In this document: one piece after another, positions 3,590-60,081 of the stretch | How positions within the stretch are numbered: position 1 is the first letter of the stretch | Layout: each line of letters opens with the position of its first letter | From: an uncultured virus (IMG/VR IMGVR_UViG_3300025438_000011) | Taxonomy: Duplodnaviria; Heunggongvirae; Uroviricota; Caudoviricetes | DNA: 64,000 nt | Virus record (IMG/VR): IMGVR_UViG_3300025438_000011 | Strand: one strand, 5' to 3' | Made by a program: the position numbers and the translations under genes | The notes under the pieces: generated by a model | Told to the model about the DNA's origin: nothing | The model's database searches: none | Seen by the model: the letters and a program-made list of their open reading frames with translations, nothing else

Positions 3590-3707
3590 TTTCTGACTTA
3601 CTACAATAAATGATAGTATGAACTACACACAAGCTAAAGACTTGTGTGTTTTACGTTCCGTCATATAAATTATTCTAATACTATCATTTAATGTAGTAAG
3701 TCAGAAA
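3590..3707. repeat. 28-bp inverted repeat enclosing a mini-element
   Basis: 3590-3617 versus 3680-3707, 1 mismatch. Confidence 0.85.
3618..3664 (-). mobile_element. 47-bp IS200/IS605-derived mini-element (PATE-like), copy 1
   Basis: ATGACGGAACGTAAAACACACAAGTCTTTAGCTTGTGTGTAGTTCAT immediately after TTTAT. Confidence 0.85.
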
Positions 3708-3758
3708 TTAGTACTACTTTCATTATAAAATTATTTCAACTAATGTACGTATAATATT

Positions 3759-4178
3759 TCAATTATCAATATGTAATACTAATAACTCAGATAGTTTCAT
3801 ATTCCGTTGGTGTTGATCTATTTTACACTGACAGAACTCACCAACTATTCCTATAATTATACTTTCTGACAAATCAATTTTGATTTTGTTCATAACATCA
3901 GTATTGTATGAGAGAAAAAATCTATTATATTTTGTGTTGAAAGTATACCAACTGTATAGGTATCCTTTTTGTATAAGGTCATGTGTATCGATTTGACATT
4001 CCATAACCCTTGATAAGTTTATTTTGGATGAATTTACCTTCAAACTGTCCCGGTACTCATCTATACTCACCCAATTTGATGATTTATACTTAATATATTC
4101 AATAGCGGGTTTAATCCCAGGAGTGAGTTTGGTTTTAGGAATATGTGTGTTGTAAAGAAAATCCATTTCTACTATCAT
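3759..4178 (-). CDS. Hypothetical protein with C-terminal RNMKLSELL tag
   Basis: ORF; shared C-terminal motif. Confidence 0.65.
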   Translation of the reverse strand: MIVEMDFLYNTHIPKTKLTPGIKPAIEYIKYKSSNWVSIDEYRDSLKVNSSKINLSRVMECQIDTHDLIQKGYLYSWYTFNTKYNRFFLSYNTDVMNKIKIDLSESIIIGIVGEFCQCKIDQHQRNMKLSELLVLHIDN

Positions 4179-4567
4179 CCTAGTAGAGAATTTAATTTGT
4201 AGTCCCTCTGTAATGGTTTCAAAACAGAATTGATAATTAACTCTCGTTCTGTTGTCATTTCTGCCAAAGTTACTGTGTGCTCACTCAATACCTTGATATA
4301 CTCTGGGTGTATGGTCAAGAACTCACTAACCGATACAGCAGGATATGGTTCATGGTTAATATCACAGAATATTTTAGAATATCCAACCATCAATGCTGTT
4401 AATTCAGCATCCTCGAAATTAAGAGCGATGTTCGGGTAAGTTATGTCTCGTGTACTACCCAAAAAAAGGAAGTGATTGAACTCATTTCGATATACATATC
4501 CCGGTTTTAGGTGATCATCTACCGCCAAGTGTTCATCTATTTGTTCTTGTGTTAAAGTACTTGCCAT
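4175..4567 (-). CDS. Hypothetical protein with C-terminal RDYKLNSLL tag
   Basis: ORF; shared C-terminal motif. Confidence 0.7.
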   Translation of the reverse strand: MASTLTQEQIDEHLAVDDHLKPGYVYRNEFNHFLFLGSTRDITYPNIALNFEDAELTALMVGYSKIFCDINHEPYPAVSVSEFLTIHPEYIKVLSEHTVTLAEMTTERELIINSVLKPLQRDYKLNSLLG

Positions 4568-4640
4568 GTGTTTGTTTATTTTGTGGATAACTATTGTGAT
4601 AAAAATTATCTTTATAAGATGATAATGTTTTTAAGATTAA

Positions 4641-4955
4641 TTAGAAGAAATCAACAATATACTGGATACATGATACTTCGAAGTTGTTATAGTTTCTAAT
4701 AAGATCCAATCTTTTAGAAGAATCTTGGATATCACATACAACATCTTCTGTTGTGATGAATAGTTTCCATCCATTATCTGTAAAGATTTCAACTGTTCGT
4801 GTGTGTCCTGATGAGTTACTATCAGTATGATAGATTAGTTTGAATTTTCTATCTTTAATAGAGAAGGTGTGACGTGCTGTGATTGTTGTAGTATAACCAT
4901 TGCTTTTTTCGTTAGTAGTTACTTTCTTCGAGATTGTTGTTAGTGTCTTAGCCAT
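4641..4955 (-). CDS. Hypothetical protein
   Basis: ORF downstream of a host-type promoter. Confidence 0.7.
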   Translation of the reverse strand: MAKTLTTISKKVTTNEKSNGYTTTITARHTFSIKDRKFKLIYHTDSNSSGHTRTVEIFTDNGWKLFITTEDVVCDIQDSSKRLDLIRNYNNFEVSCIQYIVDFF

Positions 4956-4973
4956 GTGTTTATTTGTTTTATG

Positions 4974-5005
4974 TAAATGTACGGATAACTTACCGACGGG
5001 CCAAA
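4974..5005 (-). promoter_or_regulatory. Bacteroidota-type sigma70 promoter (-33 TTTG, 20 nt, -7 TACATTTA)
   Basis: TTTGGCCCGTCGG..CGTACATTTA; near-duplicate at 5620-5651. Confidence 0.7.
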
Positions 5006-5016
5006 TTTAGGTATTA

Positions 5017-5268
5017 TTAACCACCTATTAGTTTATCAAGTGTGTGATTACGCCTATCCTTCTTAGTTTCGAAGTATTCTATAATCGTTTTTCTTAACAA
5101 CCTATTCTTAGACCGGGACAGAATATCCATCCTTTTCAGTGTTATTTTATCATAATCCGGTGGAACGCTACTAACAACATGGTCAATTCTGTATACCTCA
5201 CCAACCGAATATACCTTAGTGTTACGGACAAAGGTTTTGATTACTGTTACTTCTTCTCCAATATTCAT
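5017..5268 (-). CDS. Small hypothetical protein with C-terminal RNHTLDKLI tag
   Basis: ORF; resembles 7815, 8101 and 35725. Confidence 0.7.
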   Translation of the reverse strand: MNIGEEVTVIKTFVRNTKVYSVGEVYRIDHVVSSVPPDYDKITLKRMDILSRSKNRLLRKTIIEYFETKKDRRNHTLDKLIGG

Positions 5269-5615
5269 GTTTGTTTTTGGTGTCTTTTTGATAAGTAATC
5301 ATTTATATCTTCCATAGTGTGTAGTGGTGGTGGTGATGGTATTGCATATCTACCCAGTGGGTTGATACTCTTATATTTCATAACCAGTACTGTACTTCCT
5401 TTACGAATAAAGTGTTTTACGACTTCGTAGTGTTTATCCGTTTTGGTATCTACTATACCCTCTTCTACTACATAATCTGGTAACCAACTGTCATTGAATG
5501 TGACTTCGAGATTGCCGTTCAGAGGATTTAATGGGAAGAGTTCTTTATCTTCGTATAAATCATCTGACGAATCTCTGTAATATCCTACTTTAATTGGGTA
5601 ACTGATTCTACTCAT
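5265..5615 (-). CDS. Hypothetical protein
   Basis: ORF a few nt after a -7 element. Confidence 0.7.
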   Translation of the reverse strand: MSRISYPIKVGYYRDSSDDLYEDKELFPLNPLNGNLEVTFNDSWLPDYVVEEGIVDTKTDKHYEVVKHFIRKGSTVLVMKYKSINPLGRYAIPSPPPLHTMEDINDYLSKRHQKQT

Positions 5616-5619
5616 AGTA

Positions 5620-5651
5620 TAAATGTACGAAGAAAGTTCCGACGGGCCAAA
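5620..5651 (-). promoter_or_regulatory. Bacteroidota-type sigma70 promoter
   Basis: TTTGGCCCGTCGG..CGTACATTTA, 20-nt spacer. Confidence 0.7.
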
Positions 5652-5753
5652 TTTAAATAAATCGGTCTTTTGTTCTAGGTATTAATGAACATTCTTCGAC
5701 CGTTCTTAAATTCAACAGTTGTTTGACTGTTTAAAATTTAATTATATTTTACT

Positions 5754-6620
5754 CTAATCCCATTTATGTTTTGCTCCTTTTATCCATCCATCATTTAGGT
5801 AATTATGTAATTCTTCCTTTTTTATTGGTTTACTTTTCTTAATCTCCATATTATATACCCAACAAGTACCATATTGTGAATTTTTCTCACCTTTTTGGTG
5901 TATGGAATTTTTCTCACCTATCTTTCTTTTTGATTCTTTTGTGTGTTTTTTACCTTTCCATAGAGGAATAAGTTCTCCATTTAAAAACCTGAGATCATCT
6001 TTACAAACATAATGTATATTACCATCTATATCTTTGGTTGTGACCATACCATCCGATATATATCGTAATTCACCATTTAAATATCTAATATCATCAACTT
6101 TAACTGATGAAATATTACCATCTACATCTTTAACAGGTACCATTCCTTTGGTTGTTCCGACTAATTCACCACTTAAGTATCTATCATCGTCAATATTGAC
6201 CTTTAAATATTCACCAGCACTATTTTTGACGGTGGTCATACCTTTTGTGATTCCGACCAATTTACCAGATAAATATCTTTTATCACTTTTATGTACTCTC
6301 ATACAATCACCAGACTCGTCCCTGACCATTATTGTATCGACTGTATTAAAAGTTCCACCTATTATTATATTATATGTATCGTCCCTTTTTATGAATTCTC
6401 TATTAACTAATTTAGATTCCTTCTCTAACATATCACTTTTATTATCAAAATTATATAGAATTATTTTATCAAAATTTTCTTTCCCAAATTCATCAATTGC
6501 CTTTTTAATATTAGTACCACTACCCATATAACTATCGTTTATATTTTTGGTTATGTGACACCCAATGTATATTTTATCATCAACTCTATTGGTTATTTGA
6601 TATACGATATAATTTTTCAT
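5754..6620 (-). CDS. Free-standing GIY-YIG homing endonuclease (Seg-like)
   Basis: YIVYQITN..KIYIG..YMGSG..E..YN; four internal D.RYLSGELVG repeats; NUMOD3-like WKGKKHTKESKRKIG. Confidence 0.85.
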   Translation of the reverse strand: MKNYIVYQITNRVDDKIYIGCHITKNINDSYMGSGTNIKKAIDEFGKENFDKIILYNFDNKSDMLEKESKLVNREFIKRDDTYNIIIGGTFNTVDTIMVRDESGDCMRVHKSDKRYLSGKLVGITKGMTTVKNSAGEYLKVNIDDDRYLSGELVGTTKGMVPVKDVDGNISSVKVDDIRYLNGELRYISDGMVTTKDIDGNIHYVCKDDLRFLNGELIPLWKGKKHTKESKRKIGEKNSIHQKGEKNSQYGTCWVYNMEIKKSKPIKKEELHNYLNDGWIKGAKHKWD

Positions 6621-6716
6621 AATTAATATACTATTTTTTAGTATATATAAAAGTCCGATATTACTTTTTATCGGAGTAAATGTAGAGTCTCTAATATTTG
6701 AACCATTGTACTGTTG

Positions 6717-6792
6717 TCGGGGTGGCCGGATTCGAACCCACCTGATATCTCACGCGACAAGTGAGTAGACACGCCAAGCATCTCCCAGGACC
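6717..6792 (-). pseudogene. Chimeric tRNA: 5' tRNA-Asp(GUC) joined to a tRNA-Pro-like 3' end
   Basis: Intact anticodon arm CTCAC-TTGTCGC-GTGAG; acceptor GGTCCTG does not pair with CACCCCG; T stem broken across GGTTCGAATCC. Confidence 0.7.
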
Positions 6793-6801
6793 ATATTTTT
6801 G

Positions 6802-6875
6802 TGCGGGGTGTGGGATTCGAACCCACGACCACTCCAGTCCAAGTGGAGTAAACATCCTGACCGTTATCACCCTAC
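6802..6875 (-). tRNA. tRNA-Pro(UGG)
   Basis: Anticodon arm CTCCA-CTTGGAC-TGGAG; T arm GTGGG-TTCGAAT-CCCAC; acceptor GTAGGGT/ACCCCGC with one A-C mismatch. Confidence 0.75.
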
Positions 6876-6881
6876 ATTTTT

Positions 6882-6935
6882 GTCTAGTGGATGGGATTCG
6901 AACCCATCAGTTAAGAATTGCCATTCATCACTAGA
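6882..6935 (-). ncRNA. 54-nt tRNA-like RNA lacking an anticodon arm
   Basis: Perfect acceptor TCTAGTG/CACTAGA, T arm GATGGG-TTCGAAT-CCCATC, only one small hairpin GAAT-GGCA-ATTC between them. Confidence 0.6.
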
Positions 6936-6945
6936 TTTTACGCAT

Positions 6946-6981
6946 AAAAAAACTCAGTTAATCTAATTGACTAACTGAGTT
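6946..6981 (-). terminator. Intrinsic terminator (attenuator) upstream of the Pro/Asp tRNA cluster
   Basis: AACTCAGTTAGTC-AATTA-GATTAACTGAGTT plus T-run. Confidence 0.85.
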
Positions 6982-7008
6982 GTTATATGGGTTTGTATTA
7001 TTTAATGA

Positions 7009-7122
7009 TTATCTATAATCATCTGTTTCAAACTTTTTAACGCAGTTAGTCCTAATAGGATCGGGATCCTGATCGGTAACTCTCGGAAGAGGTTGAACTG
7101 ATATGTTAAAAAGTGTTTTCAT
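7009..7122 (-). CDS. Pro/Asp-rich leader peptide MKTLFNISVQPLPRVTDQDPDPIRTNCVKKFETDDYR
   Basis: 37 codons after AATATATA (7130-7137); contains GACTAACTGCGTT, complementary to the terminator 5' arm. Confidence 0.75.
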   Translation of the reverse strand: MKTLFNISVQPLPRVTDQDPDPIRTNCVKKFETDDYR

Positions 7123-7168
7123 CTGTTTCTATATATTAGGTTTTGTTTGTCCCTTTTCTTTTACACTA

Positions 7169-7199
7169 CAAAGGTAGTAAAGTTTACTTAACCACCAAA
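7169..7199 (-). promoter_or_regulatory. Consensus Bacteroidota sigma70 promoter
   Basis: TTTG-N19-TACCTTTG upstream of the leader and tRNA cluster. Confidence 0.7.
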
Positions 7200-7249
7200 A
7201 TTATTTGATAATATTCTTCGGTCTTTGATTTCTTATCAATACTTTCATT

Positions 7250-7519
7250 TTAATATTTAATATATTCTAATAATTTCAACTGTAGTTTTTCATCGGGGCT
7301 ATCTGTATCACTTTCTTTTAGGCTCATATATAGCTCAGCAATATTTTCGTGATCCAGTAGTATATCAAGATTAACTGACATATCAACCATTATGTAATCG
7401 GTAAATTCTTCCATAAAAAGCTGGATATTTACTAACGTTCCGATTTTGAAATCGGCTTCGGTTAATTTAGTCAATTCTTCGTTGGTTTTATATTTACCAA
7501 AATTATTTAAGTGTTCCAT
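7250..7519 (-). CDS. Hypothetical protein (possible capsid-internal)
   Basis: AATATATA upstream; N-terminus MEHLNNFGKYKTNE. Confidence 0.65.
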   Translation of the reverse strand: MEHLNNFGKYKTNEELTKLTEADFKIGTLVNIQLFMEEFTDYIMVDMSVNLDILLDHENIAELYMSLKESDTDSPDEKLQLKLLEYIKY

Positions 7520-7549
7520 GAATTATATATTAAATACAAAAATCATTAA

Positions 7550-7843
7550 TCATTTTAATATTTCTTCAAGTTTCTTGTTACGTAACCAGGGTTTGTGTAG
7601 TTTGATATAATAAGGGTGTGTGTAGTTATGGTCGGCTCCTAGTCGAGTATCTGTTACCAATAGTGGATCATTCATAGCATTCGTATTATACCCGGTTACT
7701 GTAAAAATTCCTTCTCTGTAATGTGATCTTTTATCATTCTCATCCATATAGAATTTAGACCCAATCGGATAGCATTCTTTTGTATATTCCAGCTTATCTA
7801 TTTTTGGTAGGGAATCAAATATATTTTTGTCGAATATTTTCAT
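7550..7843 (-). CDS. Hypothetical protein (YPIG..V.GY..HP family), RNKKLEEIL tag
   Basis: Similar to 8435 and 8670. Confidence 0.75.
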   Translation of the reverse strand: MKIFDKNIFDSLPKIDKLEYTKECYPIGSKFYMDENDKRSHYREGIFTVTGYNTNAMNDPLLVTDTRLGADHNYTHPYYIKLHKPWLRNKKLEEILK

Positions 7844-8111
7844 TTAAATTTAGGATTATTTTCAGTTTTTCATAACGAATCTCTTTTATACTTTTGAAAT
7901 ATTGTGGAATACAGAAATGTCTTACTCTAACATTCGTTAGAAACCATTGGTCTGAATCATTATCACCGAATAAGCTTACTTGTTTGTTATACTCATCAGG
8001 AGGGAAGGCCCTAACATCACTGATTATATAATTTTTACCTTTGGTGAATGAAATACCATATTGTTTTAAATCTTTAATACAGTGTAGATGATTGCCTATT
8101 TCATACTTCAT
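7815..8111 (-). CDS. Hypothetical protein, tandem paralogue of 8101-8373
   Basis: Shared L.CIKDL, F.KG.NY, QWFL.NV, IPQYFK..KEIR..KLK. Confidence 0.75.
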   Translation of the reverse strand: MKYEIGNHLHCIKDLKQYGISFTKGKNYIISDVRAFPPDEYNKQVSLFGDNDSDQWFLTNVRVRHFCIPQYFKSIKEIRYEKLKIILNLNENIRQKYI

Positions 8112-8373
8112 ATAACAATTTTTTCAATTTAATAGAACGAATCTCTTTTTTAGTTTTGAAATATTGTGGAATACTGAGATGGCCTTTATTAACATTTATT
8201 AGAAACCATTGGTAGTATCCAGTGTCACTGATTACGCATACCTTATTTGAGATATGTATATCATCTTTCTCTTGTATCTCTATGACTTTATAATTATTAC
8301 CTTTTTGGAATTGACATACATCATCATCTAAATCTTTTATACAGTATAAAATATCACCTACTTTAATTTTCAT
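8101..8373 (-). CDS. Hypothetical protein, tandem paralogue of 7815-8111
   Basis: Shares the L.CIKDL, QWFL.NV and IPQYFK..KEIR blocks with 7815. Confidence 0.75.
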   Translation of the reverse strand: MKIKVGDILYCIKDLDDDVCQFQKGNNYKVIEIQEKDDIHISNKVCVISDTGYYQWFLINVNKGHLSIPQYFKTKKEIRSIKLKKLLYEV

Positions 8374-8434
8374 TTCTTTTTACCAATTTATTCATTTTGT
8401 TAAGGTAGTGAAAATTTACTAGAACTTAGATTTA

Positions 8435-8695
8435 TTATTTCAGCAAATTTAGGAGGTTCAAGTTTCTTATTTGTTTCATATCGTTCTCAATATTATCGGG
8501 GTGTAATAATGTTCCATCACTACTAGTATTTTTCAATGGTGGATTTATTTTTAGTATACTATTAAATTTTTTCAAAACATACCCAACAACTATCATGGGT
8601 TCTTCGTGATAAAAGATACAATGACTTGTGGCTGATTTTTTTAGAAATACGGTAGTTCCTATTGGATATTTATTTTTTAGATCTTTCGGATTCAT
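8435..8695 (-). CDS. Hypothetical protein (YPIG..V.GY..HP family)
   Basis: ORF; C-terminal RNLNLLNLL. Confidence 0.7.
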   Translation of the reverse strand: MNPKDLKNKYPIGTTVFLKKSATSHCIFYHEEPMIVVGYVLKKFNSILKINPPLKNTSSDGTLLHPDNIENDMKQIRNLNLLNLLK

Positions 8696-9077
8696 CGAGT
8701 ATATTTTCTAATATATAATTGCGTCTGTATTCTAATCCAAGTTGTACATTATTTGGATGTATTCTGTTAATATTGTTTTTATGAGGTATTCCACTAATTT
8801 CTAATATAGTTTCTCCATTACTGATTGATACGTATCCGGTGACATCATATCCGGTATCATAGAACCACGGCAAACCTCTAAATTCTTCCTTCCCGTAAAC
8901 TTTTATACCAACTGGGAAACATTCCTCTAGATATTCTATGATATTAGTACCTATTAGTGTTTTTGAATGATGTGAATTATATTTCTTAATTTTAAACATC
9001 ATCGAGTGTACATACACATTCCCCGGAATTCTCGAATGTCTTTTTAATCTTTGGATATCCACATTCCTGACAGACAT
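8670..9077 (-). CDS. Hypothetical protein (YPIG..V.GY..HP family); true start probably near 9000
   Basis: FPVG..VTGY..IHPNN; RNYILENIL. Confidence 0.7.
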   Translation of the reverse strand: MSVRNVDIQRLKRHSRIPGNVYVHSMMFKIKKYNSHHSKTLIGTNIIEYLEECFPVGIKVYGKEEFRGLPWFYDTGYDVTGYVSISNGETILEISGIPHKNNINRIHPNNVQLGLEYRRNYILENILDESERSKK

Positions 9078-9177
9078 TTAGTGATGAGAATATAGCTTCT
9101 ACACTTTCATCAAGAGTTTTGTTACTTAATTTGAATTGTAGTAATATACTTTCTATTTTATGTTTTGATTCACTCAC
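8992..9177 (-). CDS. Small putative zinc-binding protein
   Basis: CQEC...CVC. Confidence 0.55.
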   Translation of the reverse strand: MSESKHKIESILLQFKLSNKTLDESVEAIFSSLNVCQECGYPKIKKTFENSGECVCTLDDV

Positions 9178-9434
9178 TACAGTCGGTCTTCAATTCCTTC
9201 GAGAATTTCCTCAATAAATTCCACATTACTTGAATTCTTTGATTCGCTTATATCACCAGACATATTAACTGTGTGAATGAGTTTTAGAATATCGCCAAAC
9301 TCTGTTAGAGATTTTCTAGAGGTTGGATTAGAAATATCGGATTCAGGGTTAAGTATGTATTCCATAACACCCCTGGCCTGTTCCTTTCTACTTTTCTTTT
9401 TAAGCTTATTAACCTGTTTTTTTGTGAATATCAT
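9177..9434 (-). CDS. Hypothetical protein
   Basis: ORF after a TTTG..TACATTTG promoter. Confidence 0.65.
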   Translation of the reverse strand: MIFTKKQVNKLKKKSRKEQARGVMEYILNPESDISNPTSRKSLTEFGDILKLIHTVNMSGDISESKNSSNVEFIEEILEGIEDRL

Positions 9435-9661
9435 ATTTTATGTTTTCGTATATATCAAATGTAAGGAAATAATTCGTAACTCAAACCCATATCCTGTATA
9501 TTTTGTAAATATCAATAATGGCCCAAGTCCATATGAACACAATGATAGATCATTGAAATATGGTGAATGGTCCTGTTATGAGTGAAAGTATGACAGCTGA
9601 TCCAACAACCAAACTTGTTTTATACACACGTTTTTCGTTTCCTCTAACGTTTTCCCTTATT

Positions 9662-10108
9662 TTAGTAATTATTGATTTCATGTTTTCTATAATTGTTTAA
9701 TTTCCTATTGATGTTCTCTTTACCGGCTGGATTAGAGCTTTGTACATTCCACTTGGGTAAAAGTTCTTTATTATCCATACAGTACTCAATTAACCAATTA
9801 GCACAATCATATCCAGTTTTTTCACTGGCGAACTTTGCGTCCCAAATATCTTTTTCACCAAGTTTAATACCCTCTTCGTATGCTTCTTGTGATAAATCAG
9901 GGTATGAATTATGGAATGCTTGGAAATCAGATAAGTCGTGATCGAAACAAATTCCAATTGGGAGTCCATTCTCAGTTATCCAAGTAGTGAATTCATTATA
10001 TGTTTTCAGCCACACAACTTCTTCATAATCAGATGTGGGACTGAATACTAACCAATCATCTTTTGATGGGTCTCGACTATCATCAAGCCATATTAGAGTT
10101 TTGTTCAT
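9662..10108 (-). CDS. Cyclic-phosphate-processing receiver-like domain protein
   Basis: IWLDD.RDP, FDHDL, TGYDCA.WL, SSNPAG motifs. Confidence 0.75.
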   Translation of the reverse strand: MNKTLIWLDDSRDPSKDDWLVFSPTSDYEEVVWLKTYNEFTTWITENGLPIGICFDHDLSDFQAFHNSYPDLSQEAYEEGIKLGEKDIWDAKFASEKTGYDCANWLIEYCMDNKELLPKWNVQSSNPAGKENINRKLNNYRKHEINNY

Positions 10109-10299
10109 ACTTTATACAAATCTGTGAAAGGATAATTTTCGATGAATTCTGTGTGTGAAATCTCCTGTACATCACATTTTGTGAATTTGGATAGACATTG
10201 CTCCATACTTGAGGCAAGACATATCAATTCTCTTTTATTTCTTTTAACTCTGAACGGAATCTTTTCAACTCCGTGTTCATTATATTGTACTGTTGTCAT
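10105..10299 (-). CDS. Hypothetical protein
   Basis: ORF with ATGA overlap. Confidence 0.55.
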   Translation of the reverse strand: MTTVQYNEHGVEKIPFRVKRNKRELICLASSMEQCLSKFTKCDVQEISHTEFIENYPFTDLYKV

Positions 10300-10348
10300 G
10301 TCGTTTGTGTTTGTGTGTAAAGATAAGAAAATTTTCGATAAATAAAAA

Positions 10349-10954: not shown

Positions 10955-10972
10955 ACTGTATATATTGAATTC

Positions 10973-11377: not shown

Positions 11378-11494
11378 TTTATAATTTATCTAATTTGTTT
11401 ATCGTATATGACTTATACTATATTATTACAATATGTTTTCTAATATACTATTACGTCTTATTTTTAAAACCTCGGCTTTGACTTTTCTGTTTAT

Positions 11495-11541
11495 ATGACG
11501 GAACGTAAAACACACAAATCTTTAGTTTGTGTGTAGTTCAT
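11495..11541 (+). mobile_element. 47-bp IS200/IS605-derived mini-element, copy 2
   Basis: After TTTAT (11490-94), ends TTCAT; identical to copy 3. Confidence 0.85.
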
Positions 11542-11587
11542 AAAGATAGTAAAAATCTACACGTTTTCATATTTAATATATAAGATT

Positions 11588-18785: not shown

Positions 18786-19064
18786 ATTTAAACATTTCAA
18801 CCCTGTTAATTTCGGTAATAAGGATTTAGATTATGTACTAGCTCAATTTGATATTAATAAACTTCGTGATGAAAGAAAATATAATAAGTGTGTAGAATCT
18901 AGTATTGATATAATTTATATGACGGAACGTAAAACACACAAATCTTTAGTTTGTGTGTAGTTCATATTACTGATGATAGTTTCTCAAATATACCATATTT
19001 TGGATATATGACATCTTGTGAGTTAGATATACTACAAAAAATAAAAAATAAAAATGGATTTTAA
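18772..19064 (+). pseudogene. Hypothetical gene interrupted by a mini-element
   Basis: Removing 18919-18965 restores ...SIDIIY|ITDDSFSNIPYFGYMTSCELDILQKIKNKNGF*, overlapping the dnaJ start. Confidence 0.7.
18919..18965 (+). mobile_element. 47-bp IS200/IS605-derived mini-element, copy 3
   Basis: After TTTAT (18914-18), ends TTCAT, no target duplication. Confidence 0.88.
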
Positions 19065-31209: not shown

Positions 31210-31210
31210 A

Positions 31211-31404: not shown

Positions 31405-31605
31405 AGTAAACAATACTACATTTTGTGTGTAGAAGTGTATGGGATTGAAGAAACAACCGAAGAAGGTATATCTATATCGTACTAAGTATAGTAGTAAGAT
31501 ATATCAATCATACAATGTACTTATGAATAATGTCAAGGAAGATAAGGAAGGTAGAATAGATATCTATGAACTCTCAGAATCTTATGATGATTCAGCACAG
31601 TTTAT

Positions 31606-32946
31606 ATACCTGAGCGTAAAACACACAAGTCTTTAGCTTGTGTGATGTAAGCGAATAAAAACTTTTCACAAATATTAAAGTATTTTACAAAAAAAATAAA
31701 AAATGTAAAAAATGACTTTTAAAGTTTAATATATACTTTTAATGAAAACAATATTTAAGTCATTTAAGTTTAGAATATATCCAACAAAAGATCAAGAAAT
31801 CTTGTTGGCTAAACATTTTGGGGCAAATAGATTTGTTTTTAATTACTATCTAAACAAAAGAAAAGAAAGTTATCTCGGTGAAGATAAGAAATCACTAAAT
31901 TATTATGATAATGCTAATGATTTAACACAATTAAAGAAAAATGAAGATTATATTTGGTTAAAAGAAATCAATAGTCAATCACTTCAATCATCAATTAGAA
32001 ATTTAGACACAGCTTATATGAAATTTTTTAGGAAACAAACTAAATTCCCAAGATTTAAGTCAAAATATGATAGACAATCTTTTAAAATACCACAAAATGT
32101 GTTAATTAAAGATAATAAATTAAATATACCTAAATTTAAAGAAGGAATTAAAATTAATTTACATCAAGAAATAGAAGGTAAAATAGCCTTTGCTACCATA
32201 TCTAAATCAACAACAGACAAATATTATGTATCAATTACATGTGAAATAAATCATAACCCTTTTGGAAAAACTGGTAGTGAAATAGGAATTGATACTGGAA
32301 TTAAAGACTTAGCTATATTAAGTGATGGTACTACATATGAAAATATTAAAACACTTAAAAACAATTTAAAGAAATTAAAATATGAACAGAGACAACTATC
32401 AAAGAAAGTTAAAGGAAGTTCATCAAGAAATAAACAAAGAAAAACCCTTGCTATAATTCATGAAAAAATAACCAATGTAAGAAAAGATTATTTACATAAA
32501 ATTTCTACTGAAATCATCAAAAACCACGATGTAATTTGTGTAGAGGATTTAGCTATAAAAAATATGATGAAAAATCATAAGTTAGCACAAGCATTTTCGG
32601 ATGTTAGTTTAGGTTCATTCTATTCTATGTTAGAATATAAAGCTAAATGGAATGACAAACAATATGTTAAAATTGATAGGTTTTTCCCATCATCTAAAAT
32701 GTGTTTTAAATGTGGATGGATAAATCAAGATTTAACATTAAAAGATAGAGAATGGACTTGCCCTTCATGTAACACAACACACGATAGAGATTTTAATGCG
32801 GCTAAAAACATATTAAAACAAGGTTTAAAAATACTATCTGGATTAGGGACTAATTCGGATATAAAACAAAAACAGGTGGAGTCGTTGTCGTTAGACGAGG
32901 CTATGAAACCTGAAACACATTAGTCTTTAGCTAATGTGTAGTTCAT
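31606..32946 (+). mobile_element. IS200/IS605-family (IS1341-type, tnpB-only) element
   Basis: TTTAT target at 31601-05; left hairpin CACACAAG-TCTTTAG-CTTGTGTG; right hairpin ACACATTAG-TCTTTAG-CTAATGTGT; ends TTCAT; no tnpA. Confidence 0.9.
31742..32923 (+). CDS. tnpB: RNA-guided endonuclease TnpB
   Basis: KFRIYPT N-terminus; RuvC GIDTG, VEDL, DRDFNAA intact; CFKC..CPSC zinc finger. Confidence 0.95.
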   Translation: MKTIFKSFKFRIYPTKDQEILLAKHFGANRFVFNYYLNKRKESYLGEDKKSLNYYDNANDLTQLKKNEDYIWLKEINSQSLQSSIRNLDTAYMKFFRKQTKFPRFKSKYDRQSFKIPQNVLIKDNKLNIPKFKEGIKINLHQEIEGKIAFATISKSTTDKYYVSITCEINHNPFGKTGSEIGIDTGIKDLAILSDGTTYENIKTLKNNLKKLKYEQRQLSKKVKGSSSRNKQRKTLAIIHEKITNVRKDYLHKISTEIIKNHDVICVEDLAIKNMMKNHKLAQAFSDVSLGSFYSMLEYKAKWNDKQYVKIDRFFPSSKMCFKCGWINQDLTLKDREWTCPSCNTTHDRDFNAAKNILKQGLKILSGLGTNSDIKQKQVESLSLDEAMKPETH

Positions 32947-33317
32947 TAAATCTGTTAAAGACCAGAGAGAACGTAATGAGAATCTTGATATGATTCTGAA
33001 TGATGATTCTGAACCAGCTAAAGTTCGTAGAATTGAAGAACTTATGACTGATTGGGAGGATGTTCATAATAAAAACTATAACTATGATAAAATAATTAGA
33101 CGTTTTGAGCGGGGTGGCTTGAATAGTGATAATTTTAAGAAAATTTTAAACAATCATGGTTTTCGGTATTATCTTTTATATGAAGGTCCTGATTCCGTTG
33201 AGTGGTATGAGAATGTATTATCATTACATAATATTAAAGTATTGAGTGATCGTAGAGCTGAACCACTACGTATTACCAATTTCGATAAAGCAAAGAATAA
33301 CCTTAAAAATAAAAAGA

Positions 33318-34634
33318 ATGAACGTAAGAAAGTTAGCTGAGAATGCTCTAACTAAAATTAAAGACATGGTTGATTTGCCGGAAAATGGTATAATTGCTGG
33401 TGGTGCTTTGGGTAATTTAATCTGGGAAGAAGTTTCCGGTAACAAAGCTGTCGTTAATGATGTTGATATATTCAAATATGTGAGGTTGATAACACTGGAT
33501 GATTTATCTGTTGAGCAACAACAACTTAAATACAGTAAGAATTTTTACGACAAAAAGGATCTTGAATTAGTACCGACTTATAATGGTATGACTATCAATT
33601 CAAAGACTGCTGATTTCTTCCGTATAGAAGATGTTAAAAGAGATGGGTTATTGAATATCATAGAAATTGGTGGTCCTAAGAATTCACCACAAATTATAAT
33701 TGACTCGTTTGATATAAATTCTTGTCAAATAGCTTATTGTATAAGTCGTGATGAATTTTATTGGTGTGATGAATTTGAGGAATTTTTGAAAACTGGACAA
33801 TTAGAAATATCAAATCTTATGTCACCATCACATACAGCCATTCGATTGGTTAAGAAGAAAGATGAGTTGGGTGCTAAATTAAACCCCATCGAATTGAAAA
33901 TGTGTCAATATTCTATAAAGGCAAATTTAATAGATATTAATAGAAGATATTTCACAGAGAAATACGCTAAATTGTATAGTAAGTATCACAAGGAGATGCG
34001 TCCTTATTTCTCAATTAATATATCTATGGGAGTTTCTAAATTTGTTACAGAGAAAAATAGAAAAGAAAAAAACATAGACCCTGGTGATGAAGAGAAAATA
34101 AACCTATTCAATCTTGATTGTGCTATGTTCCAAACTACGGATGGTAGTGAGTTGGATGATTGTATTGAAAATTACACAAAATGGGTTATACCGGAATGGA
34201 TTGGTATGAAAATCGATAATGGGAATCAGTTATTGAGATATGTTAGACACTTCAGTGATATTGATCCTGTTAAATATTCAAAACTCAGGTATATTATTGG
34301 TGATGAGAACTATTTCAATTATGATATTAGTGACTCGGAGTTAAACTTCATTAATAATCTAGTTACTTTTTCCAAGATTGCAATTGATAAATTATCAGGA
34401 ATGACATTGCGTGATCAGGTATTGAATATTTATAAATTAGTAGATAGGTATGATCGTAATGAGAAATTTATATCTTTGTATGTATTAGAACACCCAAAAT
34501 TTGATTTATCTAATGTACATCAATATAGTGATGATGATTATCTGTTATTGGAATTGACAAAACGTAAAGAAATAGCTAATCGTGATACTAGAAGAGAAAG
34601 AAAAATACTCGGTGATTTAATATTGAGTGTGTAA
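33318..34634 (+). CDS. Pol-beta-type nucleotidyltransferase-like protein
   Basis: IAGGAL...DVDIF...FDINSCQ; start assumed at MNVRKL. Confidence 0.6.
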   Translation: MNVRKLAENALTKIKDMVDLPENGIIAGGALGNLIWEEVSGNKAVVNDVDIFKYVRLITLDDLSVEQQQLKYSKNFYDKKDLELVPTYNGMTINSKTADFFRIEDVKRDGLLNIIEIGGPKNSPQIIIDSFDINSCQIAYCISRDEFYWCDEFEEFLKTGQLEISNLMSPSHTAIRLVKKKDELGAKLNPIELKMCQYSIKANLIDINRRYFTEKYAKLYSKYHKEMRPYFSINISMGVSKFVTEKNRKEKNIDPGDEEKINLFNLDCAMFQTTDGSELDDCIENYTKWVIPEWIGMKIDNGNQLLRYVRHFSDIDPVKYSKLRYIIGDENYFNYDISDSELNFINNLVTFSKIAIDKLSGMTLRDQVLNIYKLVDRYDRNEKFISLYVLEHPKFDLSNVHQYSDDDYLLLELTKRKEIANRDTRRERKILGDLILSV

Positions 34635-54264: not shown

Positions 54265-54989
54265 CCACCCATTTATTTTTGAGTAATTATATGCTGACCA
54301 ATTATTTTTATGAAATTCTGATATGGTTTTATATTTGAGAGATTCCACCTCACATAATTCTCTATCATTCCAGTATCCATTTTTAAATTTTCCACGAACC
54401 ATATGTGAACAAACACAATCAATCCAATTATTCTTGAGAGCTGAATTGTAAGAACTTTTTGATAACCGTTGATATTCACTTATAGTTTTGTATTTTAACG
54501 ATTCTTCTTTACAATTTTCTTTGTTCCATTTTGTGATATTTGATCCAAGATTACCCGTTTTTACTTTATTTAAAATTTCCCATCCACGTATCCTATAATC
54601 CATGAGAATACTTTCTTCCAATTTTATAGCATTATCAGTATTCAAATATTCGGATTTTATGATTAGTGTTGGTGTGGTTTTGGTCATAATTATATGTTTA
54701 AATACGGTGCTTTTCCTATCACGTATTAAATGTTGTGTCTTTCTTCGTTTAATGTTACAGGTTAATCCAACATAACAACTATTGTCCGAGAATTCAAATA
54801 CATATATAAGTCGTTTACATCTATTTCCTTGTACTACCATATGTTGTAGTAACTCATACCATTTATTTTTAAATATGATATTATATGCGCTGGATCTTTT
54901 TTTTGAAATTTATTTCTTTTATCATATTTCAAAGCTTCTTCTTTGCATCTCTGATATGTCCAATATCCATTCGGTTTTCTCTTCATCAT
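54241..54989 (-). CDS. GIY-YIG endonuclease with helical repeats, frameshifted at an A8 run
   Basis: IYVFEF..YVGLT..RR..QH..E; upstream repeat NGYW..C.EEALKY joins only if A8 (54897-54904) becomes A9. Confidence 0.7.
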
Positions 54990-58034: not shown

Positions 58035-58124
58035 ATTATAAACTTTGTATCATAAACATCGTATAATATGTAATATGTCGTATATAGACATAATTGATTA
58101 TATATATAAATAAATTAACGGCAA

Positions 58125-58934
58125 ATGAAGCAAATAGAAGGCATGAAGAATTTCTCGGTACAGGGAAAATTCTTTAAAGAACAAACTGGTAAGGATTTTG
58201 AATTTTTCTACGATAAATACTTTGATAAACTAATATACTTTGTAAATAAAATGGTCGATGATAGTAAGATGGCAGAAGATCTGGCAACTGAATCATTCCT
58301 TATAGCATTACATAAGATTGAGAAATATGAAAAAGAGAAATCTCAATTCTCAACATGGTTATTTACAGTAGCCAGAAATCACACATTACAAGAACTTAAG
58401 AAAAGTAAAAAAACTATATCGATGGATGTTTATGTTGATGAAGATGGTACGACTATGAAGGATTTCATACAATATGATGAATCCGAAGATATTCTCATGG
58501 ATAGTGTCTGGAATAAGAAAGCACAGATTATGAGTGATCATATCTATGCTCTTAAAGAACCGTTCAAAACTGTCATTGAAATGAGAGAAGTAAAGAAAAT
58601 GGTTTATAAAGATATTGCCGCTCAACTTGGTAATGATGTTACATTTTCAATACAATCAATTGGTGAATCAGTTAAACTGCCTTATGAATTATCTGAGGCT
58701 AGTTCAGTTACTAATATCATAGGTGATGAGATTGAATTTAGTCTTATTGAAGGAGATGCTAAGAAAACGCCTTTTTATACACATATCAAAGTTAAATCTG
58801 TTGGTGAGTTCAGAGTTATTGGTAGAAGTCCTAAACCACTGAGTACTATAAAAAGTCAGATTCGTAATGGTCGTTTGAAGTTAATCAACGAAACCAAGAA
58901 AGAATTCAAGGAAATCGAAAATATGTTCATGTAA
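58125..58934 (+). CDS. ECF-type sigma factor with a large insertion in region 4
   Basis: AEDLATESF...FSTWLFTVARN (region 2); YKDIAAQLG..[67 aa]..PLSTIKSQIRNGR. Confidence 0.85.
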   Translation: MKQIEGMKNFSVQGKFFKEQTGKDFEFFYDKYFDKLIYFVNKMVDDSKMAEDLATESFLIALHKIEKYEKEKSQFSTWLFTVARNHTLQELKKSKKTISMDVYVDEDGTTMKDFIQYDESEDILMDSVWNKKAQIMSDHIYALKEPFKTVIEMREVKKMVYKDIAAQLGNDVTFSIQSIGESVKLPYELSEASSVTNIIGDEIEFSLIEGDAKKTPFYTHIKVKSVGEFRVIGRSPKPLSTIKSQIRNGRLKLINETKKEFKEIENMFM

Positions 58935-58951
58935 TTGATATATTTAACCAT

Positions 58952-58997
58952 ATGAACTACACACACTTCGTGATGGGTGTGTTTTACGAAACGTCAT
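58952..58997 (-). mobile_element. 46-bp divergent mini-element, copy 4
   Basis: ATGACGTTTCGTAAAACACACCCATCACGAAGTGTGTGTAGTTCAT after TTTAT. Confidence 0.75.
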
Positions 58998-59031
58998 ATA
59001 AATTTAAACATGAAAATAAACACAAAGACTA

Positions 59032-59583
59032 GTGGATGAGCTTCTAAACTATCTAAATCGAGATGGTCTTTTATTATCCAATACAGTAAATGTATATCCG
59101 ATTGTTGAGTTGATTAAGGAATATTATCCCAATCACTTAATTTATCGAGATATTTCATTTACTGCGTTATTTGAAGAACTTAATAAGAGAGTTCCTAGAG
59201 CTGGTAAATTGAATGAATTATTGAACGGTAATAAACTCACAATCATAATTGATTTATCGGGTATGCATGAGGAGCCTGGTGGGATATTATCAACTAATGA
59301 AAATTATAAAGTACTGTGTAGTGTATTAACCACTTTGATGCCTGTTGAGAATTTACATATATTGGTTATTAACACAACATACTCAGTGAATGTTGAGGGT
59401 GGTACATCAAATAAGTCGAGAGGTGGTGGTAATTTAATACACATATTCCCAATGGTACTTGGTTTCTATGATACCATCAGTGTTATTAAGGATAGAGAGT
59501 ATGATAATTTTGTTGATGATAAAGAAATATGTGATAGTGTGAAGTTGTTGAGAGGCTTTAAATTGAAAGAAATATTGAGATGA
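59032..59583 (+). CDS. Hypothetical protein (possibly degenerate RecA-like fold), RGFKLKEIL tag
   Basis: IIIDL, ILVIN, GGG.L segments; no Walker A. Confidence 0.55.
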   Translation: MDELLNYLNRDGLLLSNTVNVYPIVELIKEYYPNHLIYRDISFTALFEELNKRVPRAGKLNELLNGNKLTIIIDLSGMHEEPGGILSTNENYKVLCSVLTTLMPVENLHILVINTTYSVNVEGGTSNKSRGGGNLIHIFPMVLGFYDTISVIKDREYDNFVDDKEICDSVKLLRGFKLKEILR

Positions 59584-60014
59584 GAATAGTTAATAAAAGA
59601 GCAAGATTTGATTATGACATAAAGGAGGAATTCATTTGTGGTATAAAACTTGTAGGTTCTGAAGTGAAATCTATCCGGGATAAGAATATCTCTTTCTCGG
59701 ATTCATATGTTATTGTAGATGATGGTCAAGTGTATTTAACTGGTGTTTTCATCGGTAGGTATGAACCATCATCATTCCTAAATCACGAAGAGAAGAGAAA
59801 TAGAGTACTATTACTCAATAAACGTGAAATTACAAAGTTGGAAAAGTCTGTTGCTTCGAAAGGCACTACAATTATACCTATTGAGATTTTCACGAAAGGT
59901 AGTCTAATTAAAGTCAAAATTGGTCTGGGTAAGGGTAAGAGGGAGTATGATAAACGTAATTCAATCAAAGAAAAAGATATTAGTAGAGAAATAAGTCGTA
60001 ATTTGAAGGTCTAA
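59580..60014 (+). CDS. smpB: SsrA-binding protein SmpB
   Basis: NKRARFDY..GIKLVGSEVKSIR..NHE..R.LLL.KREI..GKGK.YDKR..IK. Confidence 0.95.
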   Translation: MRIVNKRARFDYDIKEEFICGIKLVGSEVKSIRDKNISFSDSYVIVDDGQVYLTGVFIGRYEPSSFLNHEEKRNRVLLLNKREITKLEKSVASKGTTIIPIEIFTKGSLIKVKIGLGKGKREYDKRNSIKEKDISREISRNLKV

Positions 60015-60034
60015 ACTGGATTCTATATACATAT

Positions 60035-60081
60035 ATGAACTACACATCAGCTAAAGACTTGTGTGTTTTACGTTCCGTCAT
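60035..60081 (-). mobile_element. 47-bp mini-element, copy 5
   Basis: ATGACGGAACGTAAAACACACAAGTCTTTAGCTGATGTGTAGTTCAT after TTTAT. Confidence 0.85.

What the first reader, a model, noticed from the sequence alone, without database searches (positions are those of the whole stretch)
3618..60081. Five 46-47 bp single-hairpin mini-elements related to the tnpB transposon ends
Seen: copies at 3618, 11495, 18919, 58952 and 60035, each directly after TTTAT and ending TTCAT, the same boundaries as the full element, with no target duplication. Each looks like a left end fused to a right end through the shared TCTTTAG hairpin core; copy 5 keeps a right-end-like arm (CTGATGTG versus CTAATGTG). Copies 2/3 versus copy 1 show an A-T to G-C compensatory pair. 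Established: IS200/IS605 TnpA uses two subterminal hairpins, and non-autonomous PATEs exist. Inference: either a minimal one-hairpin mobile unit or repeated collapse scars by which the phage sheds tnpB insertions. The first bases differ from the local full element, implying another parent.
Basis: partly seen in the sequence, partly recalled or inferred. Interest (0 to 1): 0.7.

Follow-up and report, generated by a model that had tools for sequence, protein, structure and literature searches.

The report
One-hairpin IS605 transposon remnants in phage
The five 46-47-base repeats are real: they are the fused tips of IS605-type "jumping genes" left in a giant salt-lake phage, a kind of remnant already described in a salt-loving archaeon, and whether such stubs can still move is undecided.

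Summary
Observation confirmed. All five copies lie where stated, each directly after TTTAT and ending in TTCAT, without target duplication.

They are core-deleted, "terminal-only" derivatives of IS200/IS605-family elements: a 17-nt left-end leader, one hairpin and a 7-nt right-end tail.

Metagenome and IMG/VR scans raise the tally to 23 distinct sites; 22 follow TTTAT. The same contigs hold two-hairpin, gene-less parents of 113-599 nt and a tnpB element (L113). These carry exactly the minis' leader and left hairpin, and right hairpins that match the variant arms of copies 2, 3 and 5. The hairpin variants correspond to different crossover points between a parent's left and right hairpins.

I found no empty site, no site holding both a full and a collapsed form, and no tnpA in the window or in mini-bearing contigs.

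Best reading (0.55): recurrent repeat-mediated collapse scars of earlier insertions. Rival (0.3): a one-hairpin unit that TnpA mobilises in trans.

The kind is in print: 52-bp terminal-only PATEs of Haloquadratum walsbyi (PMC3119063). What is new is the host, a huge phage, and the density of the elements.

The parts
3618..3669 (-). Mini copy 1 (47 nt, 3618-3664) plus its TTTAT target (3665-3669). Hairpin of left-end type (AAG/CTT).
   Evidence: Folds at -9.6 kcal/mol, z -4.0. The same copy at the same site is in L088, a contig 98% identical over 3669 bp.
11490..11541 (+). Mini copy 2 (11495-11541) plus TTTAT (11490-11494). Hairpin of right-end type (AAA/TTT).
   Evidence: Contigs of the laid runs break inside it.
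18914..18965 (+). Mini copy 3 (18919-18965) plus TTTAT (18914-18918). Identical to copy 2.
   Evidence: Summed contig depth at 18935 is 133 / 96 / 1272 in X6 / X9 / X10, against about 5 beside it.
58952..59002 (-). Mini copy 4 (46 nt, 58952-58997) plus TTTAT (58998-59002). Second subfamily: different loop, and leader with TTT in place of GAA.
   Evidence: 3 mismatches. A parent-like 599-nt element with a related left hairpin is in L097/L098. Its fold is no better than shuffles.
60035..60086 (-). Mini copy 5 (60035-60081) plus TTTAT (60082-60086). Chimeric hairpin: left arm of left-end type, right arm CTGATGTGT of right-end type.
   Evidence: The same chimera lies at 3 more sites: L085, L099 and L108/L109/L115. 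Fold z -0.6.
31606..32946 (+). tnpB-only IS605-family element, 1341 bp, lying after TTTAT (31601-31605) and ending in TTCAT. tnpB is 31742-32923; tnpA is missing.
   Evidence: Pfam OrfB_IS605, Cas12f1-like_TNB and HTH_OrfB_IS605. Its closest relative, L016 (TnpB 92% identical), carries a Y1_Tnp gene between the left end and tnpB.
31439..33340 (+). Phage gene split by the tnpB element. 31439-31605 and 32947-33340 are in one frame.
   Evidence: Read from the sequence. An uninterrupted 186-aa homologue, P0002 (65% identity to the part searched), runs across the junction.
3590..3707 (.). Inverted repeat of about 30 bp (arms about 3590-3619 and 3678-3707) with copy 1 in its loop.
   Evidence: Folds at -34.1 kcal/mol, z -9.7, 0 of 200 shuffles as good.

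Best explanation
The five repeats are terminal-only (core-deleted) derivatives of IS200/IS605-family transposons. Each consists of the 17-nt left-end leader, which includes the DNA guide just 5' of the hairpin, then one subterminal hairpin, then the 7-nt right-end tail.

Each most likely marks a place where a two-hairpin element once inserted 3' of TTTAT by the TnpA single-strand 'peel-and-paste' route. That element was either a gene-less PATE of 113-599 nt or a tnpB element.

The core was later lost by repeat-mediated deletion between the near-identical left and right hairpins, which lie as direct repeats. Replication slippage, or template switching during repair, is the likely route. Crossovers at different points of the hairpin give the observed variants.

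A collapsed form has one hairpin and one guide. It is probably a poor substrate for TnpA or none at all, so it stays where it is while intact elements can still be excised. On this view the stubs pile up in intergenic DNA.

Shown here: the anatomy, the target rule, the existence of the parents, and the crossover classes. Inferred: the order of events at each site, the deletion mechanism, and immobility.
For: 1. Boundaries. 22 of 23 distinct mini sites follow TTTAT and one follows TATAT; there is no target duplication. The background frequency of TTTAT is 0.44%.

2. Parents.
- L113 is a tnpB element with exactly the minis' leader and left hairpin. Its right arm is CTGATGTGT, and its TnpB is 49% identical to the window's.
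- Two-hairpin gene-less elements of 113, 197-211, 259-266 and 599 nt with the same leader lie in the same contigs. Their right hairpins are AAA/TTT, or carry the arm CTGATGTGT.
- In L016 the left and right hairpins are identical over 22 nt.

3. Crossover classes among the 23 sites.
- 8 have the whole right-type hairpin (AAA/TTT).
- 4 have the left-type hairpin (AAG/CTT).
- 4 are chimeras with the crossover in the loop (copy 5 type).
- 2 have the whole right hairpin of the CTGATGTGT type.
- 2 share a loop variant.
- 3 are other forms.
By my reading, the commonest class for each parent type is the one whose crossover falls in the longest stretch of left/right identity.

4. One site, two classes. 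L079 and L083 are the same site. They differ by 1 base in 4028, and that base is the position that distinguishes left from right hairpins.

5. Other deletion products. A 90-nt form (leader plus right-end part, L091) and a 28-nt hairpinless remnant after TTTAT (L110) exist.

6. Reticulate pattern. The leader variant ATAACGGAAC occurs with 3 hairpin types, and the copy-5 chimera occurs with 2 leaders.

7. Precedent. In Haloquadratum walsbyi, 390-bp and 1500-bp elements collapse to 52 bp across 22- and 19-bp palindrome repeats. [quoted passage not shown]

8. Substrate requirement. Excision by a related TnpA needs intact left and right ends (PMC10055086, passages).
Against: - No site was found with a long element in one contig and a mini in another. 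This covers 62 overlapping alignments of at least 200 bp, 119,632 aligned nt. The contigs were fetched because they hold a mini, and they are nearly clonal.
- In the window, minis outnumber longer elements 5 to 1, and no two-hairpin PATE is present.
- One loop variant occurs at two different sites, and no held longer element carries it.
- The leader variant ATAACGGAAC is seen only in minis.
- Both of these last points are what copying of minis would give, unless the parents were simply not sampled.
- The single L079/L083 difference could also be a hairpin-templated correction of a G-T mismatch rather than a second collapse.
- In Haloquadratum, six strain-specific insertions were all of the 52-bp form, which its authors read as possible mobility.
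Confidence: 0.55

Rival explanations
1. The one-hairpin 47-mer is itself a mobile unit. A Y1 transposase (TnpA) supplied in trans cleaves after TTTAT and after TTCAT on either side of the single hairpin, and moves the element to new TTTAT sites. New minis may arise by collapse now and then and afterwards multiply as minis.
For: - 23 sites hold nearly invariant 45-53-nt units with intact boundaries.
- Identical sequences lie at many sites, including a rare loop variant at 2 sites for which no parent is held.
- Summed contig depth at the minis is 20-250 times the phage's own, and many different flanks start at the TTTAT boundary. That depth also counts the left ends of longer elements.
- By the IS608 pairing rule, which I recall and did not read here, the minis' single guide AAAA would read TTAT. 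It would read TCAT with no worse a fit than the natural right guide GAAA.
- Guide and boundary covary in relatives. Counting the GAAR next to the hairpin in the rows by eye: GAAA with TCAT 14, GAAG with TCAC 18, GAAA with TCAC 4, no right end recognised 3, of 39 loci. Many of these loci are near-duplicates.
- TnpA_REP cleaves 5' or 3' of one REP hairpin (PMC3333891).
- Dyall-Smith et al. suggest that the 52-bp form may be mobilised.
Against: - No empty site was seen, neither in held contigs nor in the contigs of 4 runs laid on 3 sites.
- No tnpA lies among the 76 window ORFs scanned, nor in loci L079-L121.
- TnpA works as a dimer that binds one hairpin per monomer (PMC7290912), and excision by a related TnpA needed both ends intact (PMC10055086).
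- Copies 4 and 5 do not fold better than shuffles, yet the copy-5 chimera lies at 4 sites.
- Leaders and hairpin classes are mixed in a reticulate way.
Confidence: 0.3
2. Whatever their origin, the hairpins have been taken over by the phage, for example as RNA-stabilising or terminating stem-loops or as protein-binding sites in intergenic DNA, and are kept for that reason.
For: - All five window copies are intergenic.
- Copy 1 sits in the loop of a strong inverted repeat of about 30 bp.
- REP hairpins, the closest single-hairpin analogues, are credited with such roles (abstracts listed).
Against: - Orientation relative to the flanking genes is mixed. c1 and c3 run with transcription, c4 and c5 run against it, and c2 lies between divergent genes.
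- No run of T follows the stem.
- Two of the five copies do not fold better than shuffles.
- A 47-nt insert inside a gene would shift the frame, so intergenic placement is expected from selection alone.
- No Rfam family matches at these places.
Confidence: 0.07
3. The repeats are not transposon-derived. They would be a phage regulatory motif that happens to resemble the ends of the tnpB element.
For: None beyond intergenic placement.
Against: - The first 38 nt of copy 1 are identical to the left end of L113.
- The tails are identical to the right ends of tnpB elements.
- The TTTAT/TTCAT boundaries are the same as those of the full element, whose insertion into a gene is confirmed by an uninterrupted homologue.
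Confidence: 0.02

Closest known systems
Terminal-only (core-deleted) PATEs of Haloquadratum walsbyi: HqIRS46 and ISHwa23, 52 bp (Dyall-Smith et al. 2011, PMC3119063; passages read)
   Same: - About 50 bp of concatenated termini with one copy of the near-terminal palindrome.
- Derived from a PATE or a tnpB (IS1341-type) element whose two palindromes form a direct repeat of about 20 bp.
- No target duplication and a short target oligonucleotide.
- The same open question: scar or mobile.
- Hypersaline habitat.
   Different: - The host here is a huge bacteriophage, not an archaeal chromosome.
- Several crossover classes are visible because the parents' left and right hairpins differ at a few positions.
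- No same-site full/collapsed pair and no strain-specific insertion was found here, whereas both were found there.
PATEs / PATE-like gene-less IS200/IS605 elements (Geobacillus stearothermophilus, Meers et al. 2023, PMC10055086; Halanaerobium, PMC7290912; passages read)
   Same: - Non-autonomous.
- Ends shared with tnpA/tnpB elements.
- TAM/TEM boundaries with DNA guides next to the hairpins.
- The 113-599-nt relatives found in the same contigs fit this description.
   Different: Canonical PATEs keep both subterminal hairpins, and often the guide-RNA part of the tnpB element. The 46-47-nt forms keep one hairpin and one guide.
REP singlets versus REPINs with RAYT / TnpA_REP (PMC3116915, PMC3333891; passages read)
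   Same: - Single extragenic hairpins related to IS200/IS605 ends.
- Singlets are argued to be immobile remnants of a two-hairpin unit, some of them produced by deletion between the two REPs.
- A Y1 enzyme can cut on either side of one hairpin.
   Different: - REPINs are inverted doublets served by a domesticated single-copy RAYT.
- Here the parents carry direct-repeat hairpins and classical IS605 boundaries.
- No RAYT was seen, and the minis do not lie in inverted pairs.
IS608 / ISDra2 paradigm of the IS200/IS605 family (as summarised in PMC3333891 and PMC7290912; the details of the pairing rule are recalled, not read)
   Same: - Insertion 3' of a tetra- or pentanucleotide.
- Subterminal hairpins.
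- A guide 5' of the hairpin foot.
- Left and right hairpins of the same or nearly the same sequence.
   Different: - Those are autonomous elements with tnpA.
- The window has no tnpA; its only long element has lost it.

Membership tests
IS200/IS605-family derivative | Ends identical or nearly so to those of an element that carries tnpA and/or tnpB | tested here: met
   The leader and left hairpin are identical to the left end of the tnpB element in L113. The tail is identical to the right ends of tnpB elements. L016 carries Y1_Tnp (E 1.6e-31) together with tnpB.
IS200/IS605-family derivative | Inserted 3' of a fixed pentanucleotide, with no terminal inverted repeats and no target duplication | tested here: met
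   22 of 23 sites follow TTTAT. The flanks show no duplication.
Canonical PATE (two-hairpin gene-less IS200/IS605 element) | A subterminal palindrome near each end (left and right) | tested here: not met
   There is only one main hairpin per 46-47-nt unit. The 113-599-nt relatives do have two.
Canonical PATE (two-hairpin gene-less IS200/IS605 element) | Too short to encode a transposase | tested here: met
   Length is 45-53 nt.
Canonical PATE (two-hairpin gene-less IS200/IS605 element) | Mobilised in trans by TnpA (presence/absence polymorphism, excision) | tested here: inconclusive
   No empty site was seen in held contigs or in the contigs of 4 runs. No tnpA lies in the window or in L079-L121. 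Contigs drop rare variants, so this does not show absence.
Terminal-only PATE made by repeat-mediated core deletion (Dyall-Smith 2011) | The sequence equals the concatenated termini with one copy of the palindrome, and the parents carry the palindrome as a direct repeat | tested here: met
   In L016 the two hairpins are identical over 22 nt. The mini variants equal left-by-right crossover products of held parents.
Terminal-only PATE made by repeat-mediated core deletion (Dyall-Smith 2011) | The same site complete in one strain and collapsed in another | tested here: inconclusive
   No such pair was found. Indirect hint: two crossover classes at one site, L079 and L083, which differ by 1 base in 4028.
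REPIN / RAYT system | Inverted doublets of the hairpin, and an associated single-copy RAYT gene | tested here: not met
   The copies are singletons. The nearest pair, c4 and c5, lie 1.08 kb apart in the same orientation. No Y1 gene is among the 76 window ORFs scanned.
MITE | Terminal inverted repeats and a target-site duplication | tested here: not met
   The termini ATGAC... and ...GTTCAT are not inverted repeats of MITE type, and there is no duplication.
Intrinsic terminator | G+C-rich stem followed by a run of T | tested here: not met
   On the top strand the stem is followed by AGTTCAT and unrelated flanks. The stem consists of alternating A/C paired with G/T.

The most novel reading that the evidence does not exclude
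A 47-nt unit with a single hairpin and a single DNA guide is a complete substrate for a Y1 transposase. The one guide (AAAA) would read both the left boundary (TTTAT) and the right boundary (TTCAT). Huge phages would then be colonised by the smallest known transposable DNA, made again and again from larger elements and afterwards spreading on its own.
Probability: 0.27. Interest if true: 0.7.

Novelty: new member of a known kind. Interest (0 to 1): 0.35.

Why it matters
The mechanism of the IS200/IS605 family is built on two hairpins, one for each TnpA monomer. A natural series running from 1341 nt down to 47 nt, and even to 28 nt, all with the same boundaries, gives ready-made substrates for asking what the minimal end requirements are.

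It also shows how a genome rids itself of these elements. The core is deleted between the hairpin repeats, which leaves a stub that can no longer carry a nuclease or a guide RNA.

The window also shows that huge phages with translation-related genes can be heavily colonised by TnpB-type elements and their gene-less offspring. One 8-kb stretch (L091) holds six elements or ends. This bears on how RNA-guided nucleases and their guide RNAs spread through phages.

The kind of remnant is already in print, so the gain is a new host and a cleaner natural data set, not a new principle.

Tried and rejected
- **Whole genome.** None is held for the window.
- **Close relatives.** Megablast of 36 kb of the window against the phage collection found nothing. 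tblastn with P0002 found nothing.
- **First IMG/VR scan.** A strict mini pattern gave 0 hits.
- **Relative of ORF 59032-59583.** None in IMG/VR.
- **Relative of the 759-aa protein.** One locus, 42% identical, too distant to compare intergenic DNA.
- **Records with close TnpB.** 5 IMG/VR records held 0 minis.
- **Distant huge-phage relatives.** LR756502.1 and LR745206.1 (52% aa identity in one protein) held 0 minis.
- **Prokaryote genome scan.** One hit, L106, the same sequence as metagenome hit L101. It has no TTTAT and no leader, so it is a chance match and not a mini. I found no mini in the 185,579-species collection with that exact pattern.
- **Empty sites in held DNA.** Flank-pair search and all-against-all comparison of the held contigs found none, and no alternative occupant.
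- **Empty sites in runs.** Contigs of 4 runs were laid on 3400-19400. No joint skips a mini. The joints listed have short sides (21-26 nt) and do not skip a mini. Contigs drop rare variants, so this is no evidence of absence.
- **Homologue of the split gene in held loci.** None.
- **Short ORF 31202-31345.** It looked to me like the start of a GIY-YIG nuclease. There is no Pfam hit and BLASTP to the window's two GIY-YIG ORFs gives E about 0.07, so this is not supported.
- **Earlier notes of this scan.** None on this genome or on this sequence.
- **Profile search for decayed copies.** A profile search of the window for further decayed copies was not run. The question rests on the mismatch searches.
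- **Orientation.** Orientation relative to genes or GC skew shows no consistent pattern.

Full report
**1.

The five copies are at the stated places:

| copy | coordinates | strand | length |
|---|---|---|---|
| c1 | 3618-3664 | - | 47 nt |
| c2 | 11495-11541 | + | 47 nt |
| c3 | 18919-18965 | + | 47 nt |
| c4 | 58952-58997 | - | 46 nt |
| c5 | 60035-60081 | - | 47 nt |

- The 21-nt left half matches exactly these five places with up to 3 mismatches. None of 100 shuffles gave any match.
- The 13-nt right end matches the five minis, the right end of the tnpB element at 32934-32946, and two 2-mismatch places that are not elements. That is 8 matches against 2.5 expected.
- On its own strand each copy is preceded by TTTAT and ends in TTCAT. 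No flank is duplicated.
- TTTAT fills only 0.44% of position-strands in the window (558 hits).
- As single-stranded DNA, c1 and c2/c3 form a 10-bp stem (z -4.0 and -2.9). c4 and c5 fold no better than shuffles (z -0.5 and -0.6).
- c4 does not have the TCTTTAG loop and belongs to a second subfamily.

**2. The setting**

The window looks like part of a very large phage.
- It encodes a GlnRS, SmpB, ribosomal protein S21, L7/L12-like and S1-domain proteins, a sigma-70-like protein, RNA-repair and ligase genes, and three tRNAs.
- Its 759-aa protein is 52% identical to proteins of uncultured phages of 634-642 kb. It is more distantly related to proteins of 462-735-kb phages and of Lak phages.
- No whole genome is held, and nothing in the phage collection is close at the DNA level.
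- Runs that hold the DNA are labelled salt lake metagenome.

**3. The local full element**

- The element spans 31606-32946 (1341 bp). It follows TTTAT and ends in TTCAT.
- Its ORF is a TnpB by Pfam: OrfB_IS605, Cas12f1-like_TNB and HTH_OrfB_IS605.
- It has no tnpA. Its closest relative in IMG/VR, L016 (TnpB 92% identical), has a 137-aa Y1_Tnp gene (E 1.6e-31) between the left end and tnpB. The flanking non-coding DNA is otherwise collinear, so the window's copy has lost tnpA.
- The element splits a phage gene. 31439-31605 and 32947-33340 are in one frame, and a 186-aa protein (P0002, 65% identical to the part searched) runs uninterrupted across the junction.
- This is an empty site for the full element, and it confirms the boundaries independently.
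- None of the 76 window ORFs scanned is a Y1 transposase.

**4. The minis occur well beyond the window**

- One metagenome scan with a mini pattern returned 27 loci.
- IMG/VR scans and record searches added more.
- Collapsed by flank, there are 23 distinct sites of 45-53-nt units, counting the window's five. 22 follow TTTAT and one follows TATAT.
- Two further pattern hits, L101 and its genome-collection twin L106, lack both TTTAT and the leader. They are chance matches.
- Only L088 is syntenic with the window (98% over 3669 bp). It has c1 at the same place, and the contig stops at the element.
- In four runs laid on 3400-19400, contigs break inside the minis. Summed depth at 18935 is 133, 96 and 1272 in X6, X9 and X10, against about 5 beside it. 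Many different sequences take over exactly at the TTTAT boundary of c1.
- That depth also counts the left ends of longer elements and is not a copy number.

**5. The parents**

The contigs that hold minis also hold longer elements that start, after TTTAT, with exactly the minis' 17-nt leader and the left hairpin (AAG/CTT), and then continue.
- Gene-less two-hairpin elements measure 113, 175, 197-211 and 259-266 nt. A 599-nt element is of the c4 subfamily. The script counted one extra base.
- L113 is a tnpB-only element with the same left end. Its TnpB is 49% identical to the window's.
- Their right ends carry either the AAA/TTT hairpin, which is the hairpin of c2 and c3, or a hairpin whose right arm is CTGATGTGT, which is the odd arm of c5.
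- In L016 the left and right hairpins are identical over 22 nt.

The 'compensatory pair' is the difference between the parents' left and right hairpins.

**6. The variants are crossover products**

Classes among the 23 sites:

| class | sites |
|---|---|
| whole right-type hairpin (AAA/TTT) | 8 |
| left-type hairpin (AAG/CTT) | 4 |
| chimera, left arm plus right arm CTGATGTGT (c5 type) | 4 |
| whole right hairpin of the CTGATGTGT type | 2 |
| shared loop variant | 2 |
| other (c4, a 53-nt relative of it, a 45-nt form) | 3 |

- Each class is what a deletion between a parent's two hairpins would leave if the crossover fell in one of the short stretches where the two are identical.
- By my reading of those sequences, for both parent types the commonest class is the one with the longest identical stretch.
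- At one site two classes occur. L079 and L083 differ by 1 base in 4028, and that base is the diagnostic A/G of the hairpin.
- Other deletion products share the same boundaries: a 90-nt form with the leader joined to the right-end part (L091), and a 28-nt remnant with no hairpin at all (L110).
- Leader variants and hairpin classes are mixed. One leader variant occurs with three hairpin types, and the c5 chimera occurs with two leaders.

All this points to repeated, independent formation of minis from longer elements.

**7. What could not be settled**

- I found no empty mini site and no site with a long element in one contig and a mini in another. The overlapping contigs are nearly identical: 62 alignments of at least 200 bp, 119,632 nt, with no element-sized indel.
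- The laid contigs show no joint that skips a mini. Contigs drop rare variants, and my contigs were chosen for holding a mini, so this says little.
- TnpA-like genes lie beside tnpB in 27 of the 122 sequences searched (121 loci and the window). All 27 are among the IMG/VR TnpB relatives L001-L078. None is in L079-L121 or in the window.
- Points in favour of copying of minis:
  - One loop variant lies at two sites with no held parent.
  - One leader variant is seen only in minis.
  - Minis outnumber longer elements 5 to 1 in the window.

**8. Mechanism**

The family's rule is that a short guide 5' of the hairpin foot pairs with the cleavage site (PMC3333891, passage). TAM/TEM and guides covary, and excision needs both ends (PMC10055086, passages).
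- Here the left guide reads AAAA and the right guide GAAA.
- By the IS608 pairing scheme as I recall it (not read here), these fit TTAT and TCAT.
- Counting the GAAR next to the hairpin in the rows by eye, across 39 relatives: GAAA goes with TCAT in 14, GAAG with TCAC in 18, GAAA with TCAC in 4, and 3 have no recognisable right end. Many of these loci are near-duplicates.
- A mini has only the left-type guide and one hairpin, while TnpA binds one hairpin per monomer (PMC7290912, passage).

I therefore think most minis are immobile stubs that mark former insertions. They would be produced by slippage or template switching between the hairpin repeats, and they accumulate because they can no longer be excised (0.55).

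The rival, trans-mobilisation of the one-hairpin unit, stays open (0.3). The single guide could in principle read both boundaries, and a related Y1 enzyme cuts on either side of one REP hairpin.

**9. Comparison with what is known**

Dyall-Smith et al. 2011 (PMC3119063, passages) describe the same thing in Haloquadratum walsbyi.
- A 390-bp PATE and a 1500-bp tnpB element are shortened to 52-bp 'terminal-only' versions by deletion across the 22- or 19-bp repeat formed by the two near-terminal palindromes.
- Six strain-specific insertions are all of the 52-bp form, from which they suggest possible mobility.
- They propose the deletion as a defence.

Another (e1-6014134) reports 60-bp single-hairpin IS605 remnants in a different jumbo phage, which I did not check.

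My full-text searches for such elements in phages listed no paper whose title or abstract describes them. That is weak evidence that the phage setting is not in print.

**10. Verdict**

This is a real feature with well-resolved anatomy, of a kind already described. It is a new member in a new host, a huge phage, with an unusually clear record of how it forms. Interest is moderate to low unless the one-hairpin unit proves to be mobile.

Noticed in passing
window 31439-33340: The tnpB element sits inside a conserved phage gene of unknown function. An uninterrupted 186-aa homologue (P0002) exists. The C-terminal 116 aa may still be made from the ATG at 32990; this ORF was called on 13 contigs (P0001).
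   Followed up: yes
window 3590-3707: Copy 1 lies in the loop of an inverted repeat of about 30 bp (-34.1 kcal/mol, z -9.7). With the element removed, TTTAT would sit in an 11-nt loop. This suggests a single-stranded hairpin loop as the insertion target. The other four sites show no such palindrome by eye.
   Followed up: partly
L091 (8037 nt): Very dense colonisation within 8 kb: three 263-266-nt two-hairpin elements, one 47-nt mini, one 90-nt one-hairpin derivative and one further right end.
   Followed up: partly
L110 about 3021 (-), and L108/L109/L115: A 28-nt remnant after TTTAT keeps the leader and the TTCAT tail but has no hairpin. A copy-5-type mini has a right boundary that reads TTTAT instead of TTCAT.
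   Followed up: no
left-end leaders in the window minis and in L010, L025, L030, L036, L085, L097: A 3-bp stem ACG...CGT inside the leader is kept while its 3-nt loop varies (GAA, TTT, TGT, GAG). The window's own tnpB element and L016 lack it. It may be a small structural feature between the cleavage site and the guide.
   Followed up: no
L095/L097/L098 (L097 7058-7116): A mini is inserted at a TTTAT that starts 6 nt after the right end of a 599-nt element, so the elements lie almost in tandem.
   Followed up: no
window 3-1487, 2038-2192, 18205-18396, 39434-40379, 41960-43123, 59580-60014: Translation-related genes in the phage: GlnRS next to two tRNA-Gln(TTG) genes, S21, two L7/L12-like ORFs, an S1-domain protein and SmpB. 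RNA-repair-type domains are also present (HAD_SAK_2, cREC_REC, RNA ligase).
   Followed up: no
window 20657-29965, 44270-49090, 49119-52292: Three very long ORFs (3102, 1606 and 1057 aa) have no Pfam match at E 0.001.
   Followed up: no
window 5754-6620, 54241-54840, 31202-31345: Two ORFs have GIY-YIG domains (homing-endonuclease-like). A 47-aa ORF just upstream of the tnpB insertion looks to the eye like a GIY-YIG N-terminus, but this is not supported (no Pfam hit; BLASTP E about 0.07).
   Followed up: partly
L111/L116 (508-nt element): An element with the minis' left end carries a 128-aa ORF of unknown function. Its right end showed no obvious hairpin, and the boundary is not verified.
   Followed up: no
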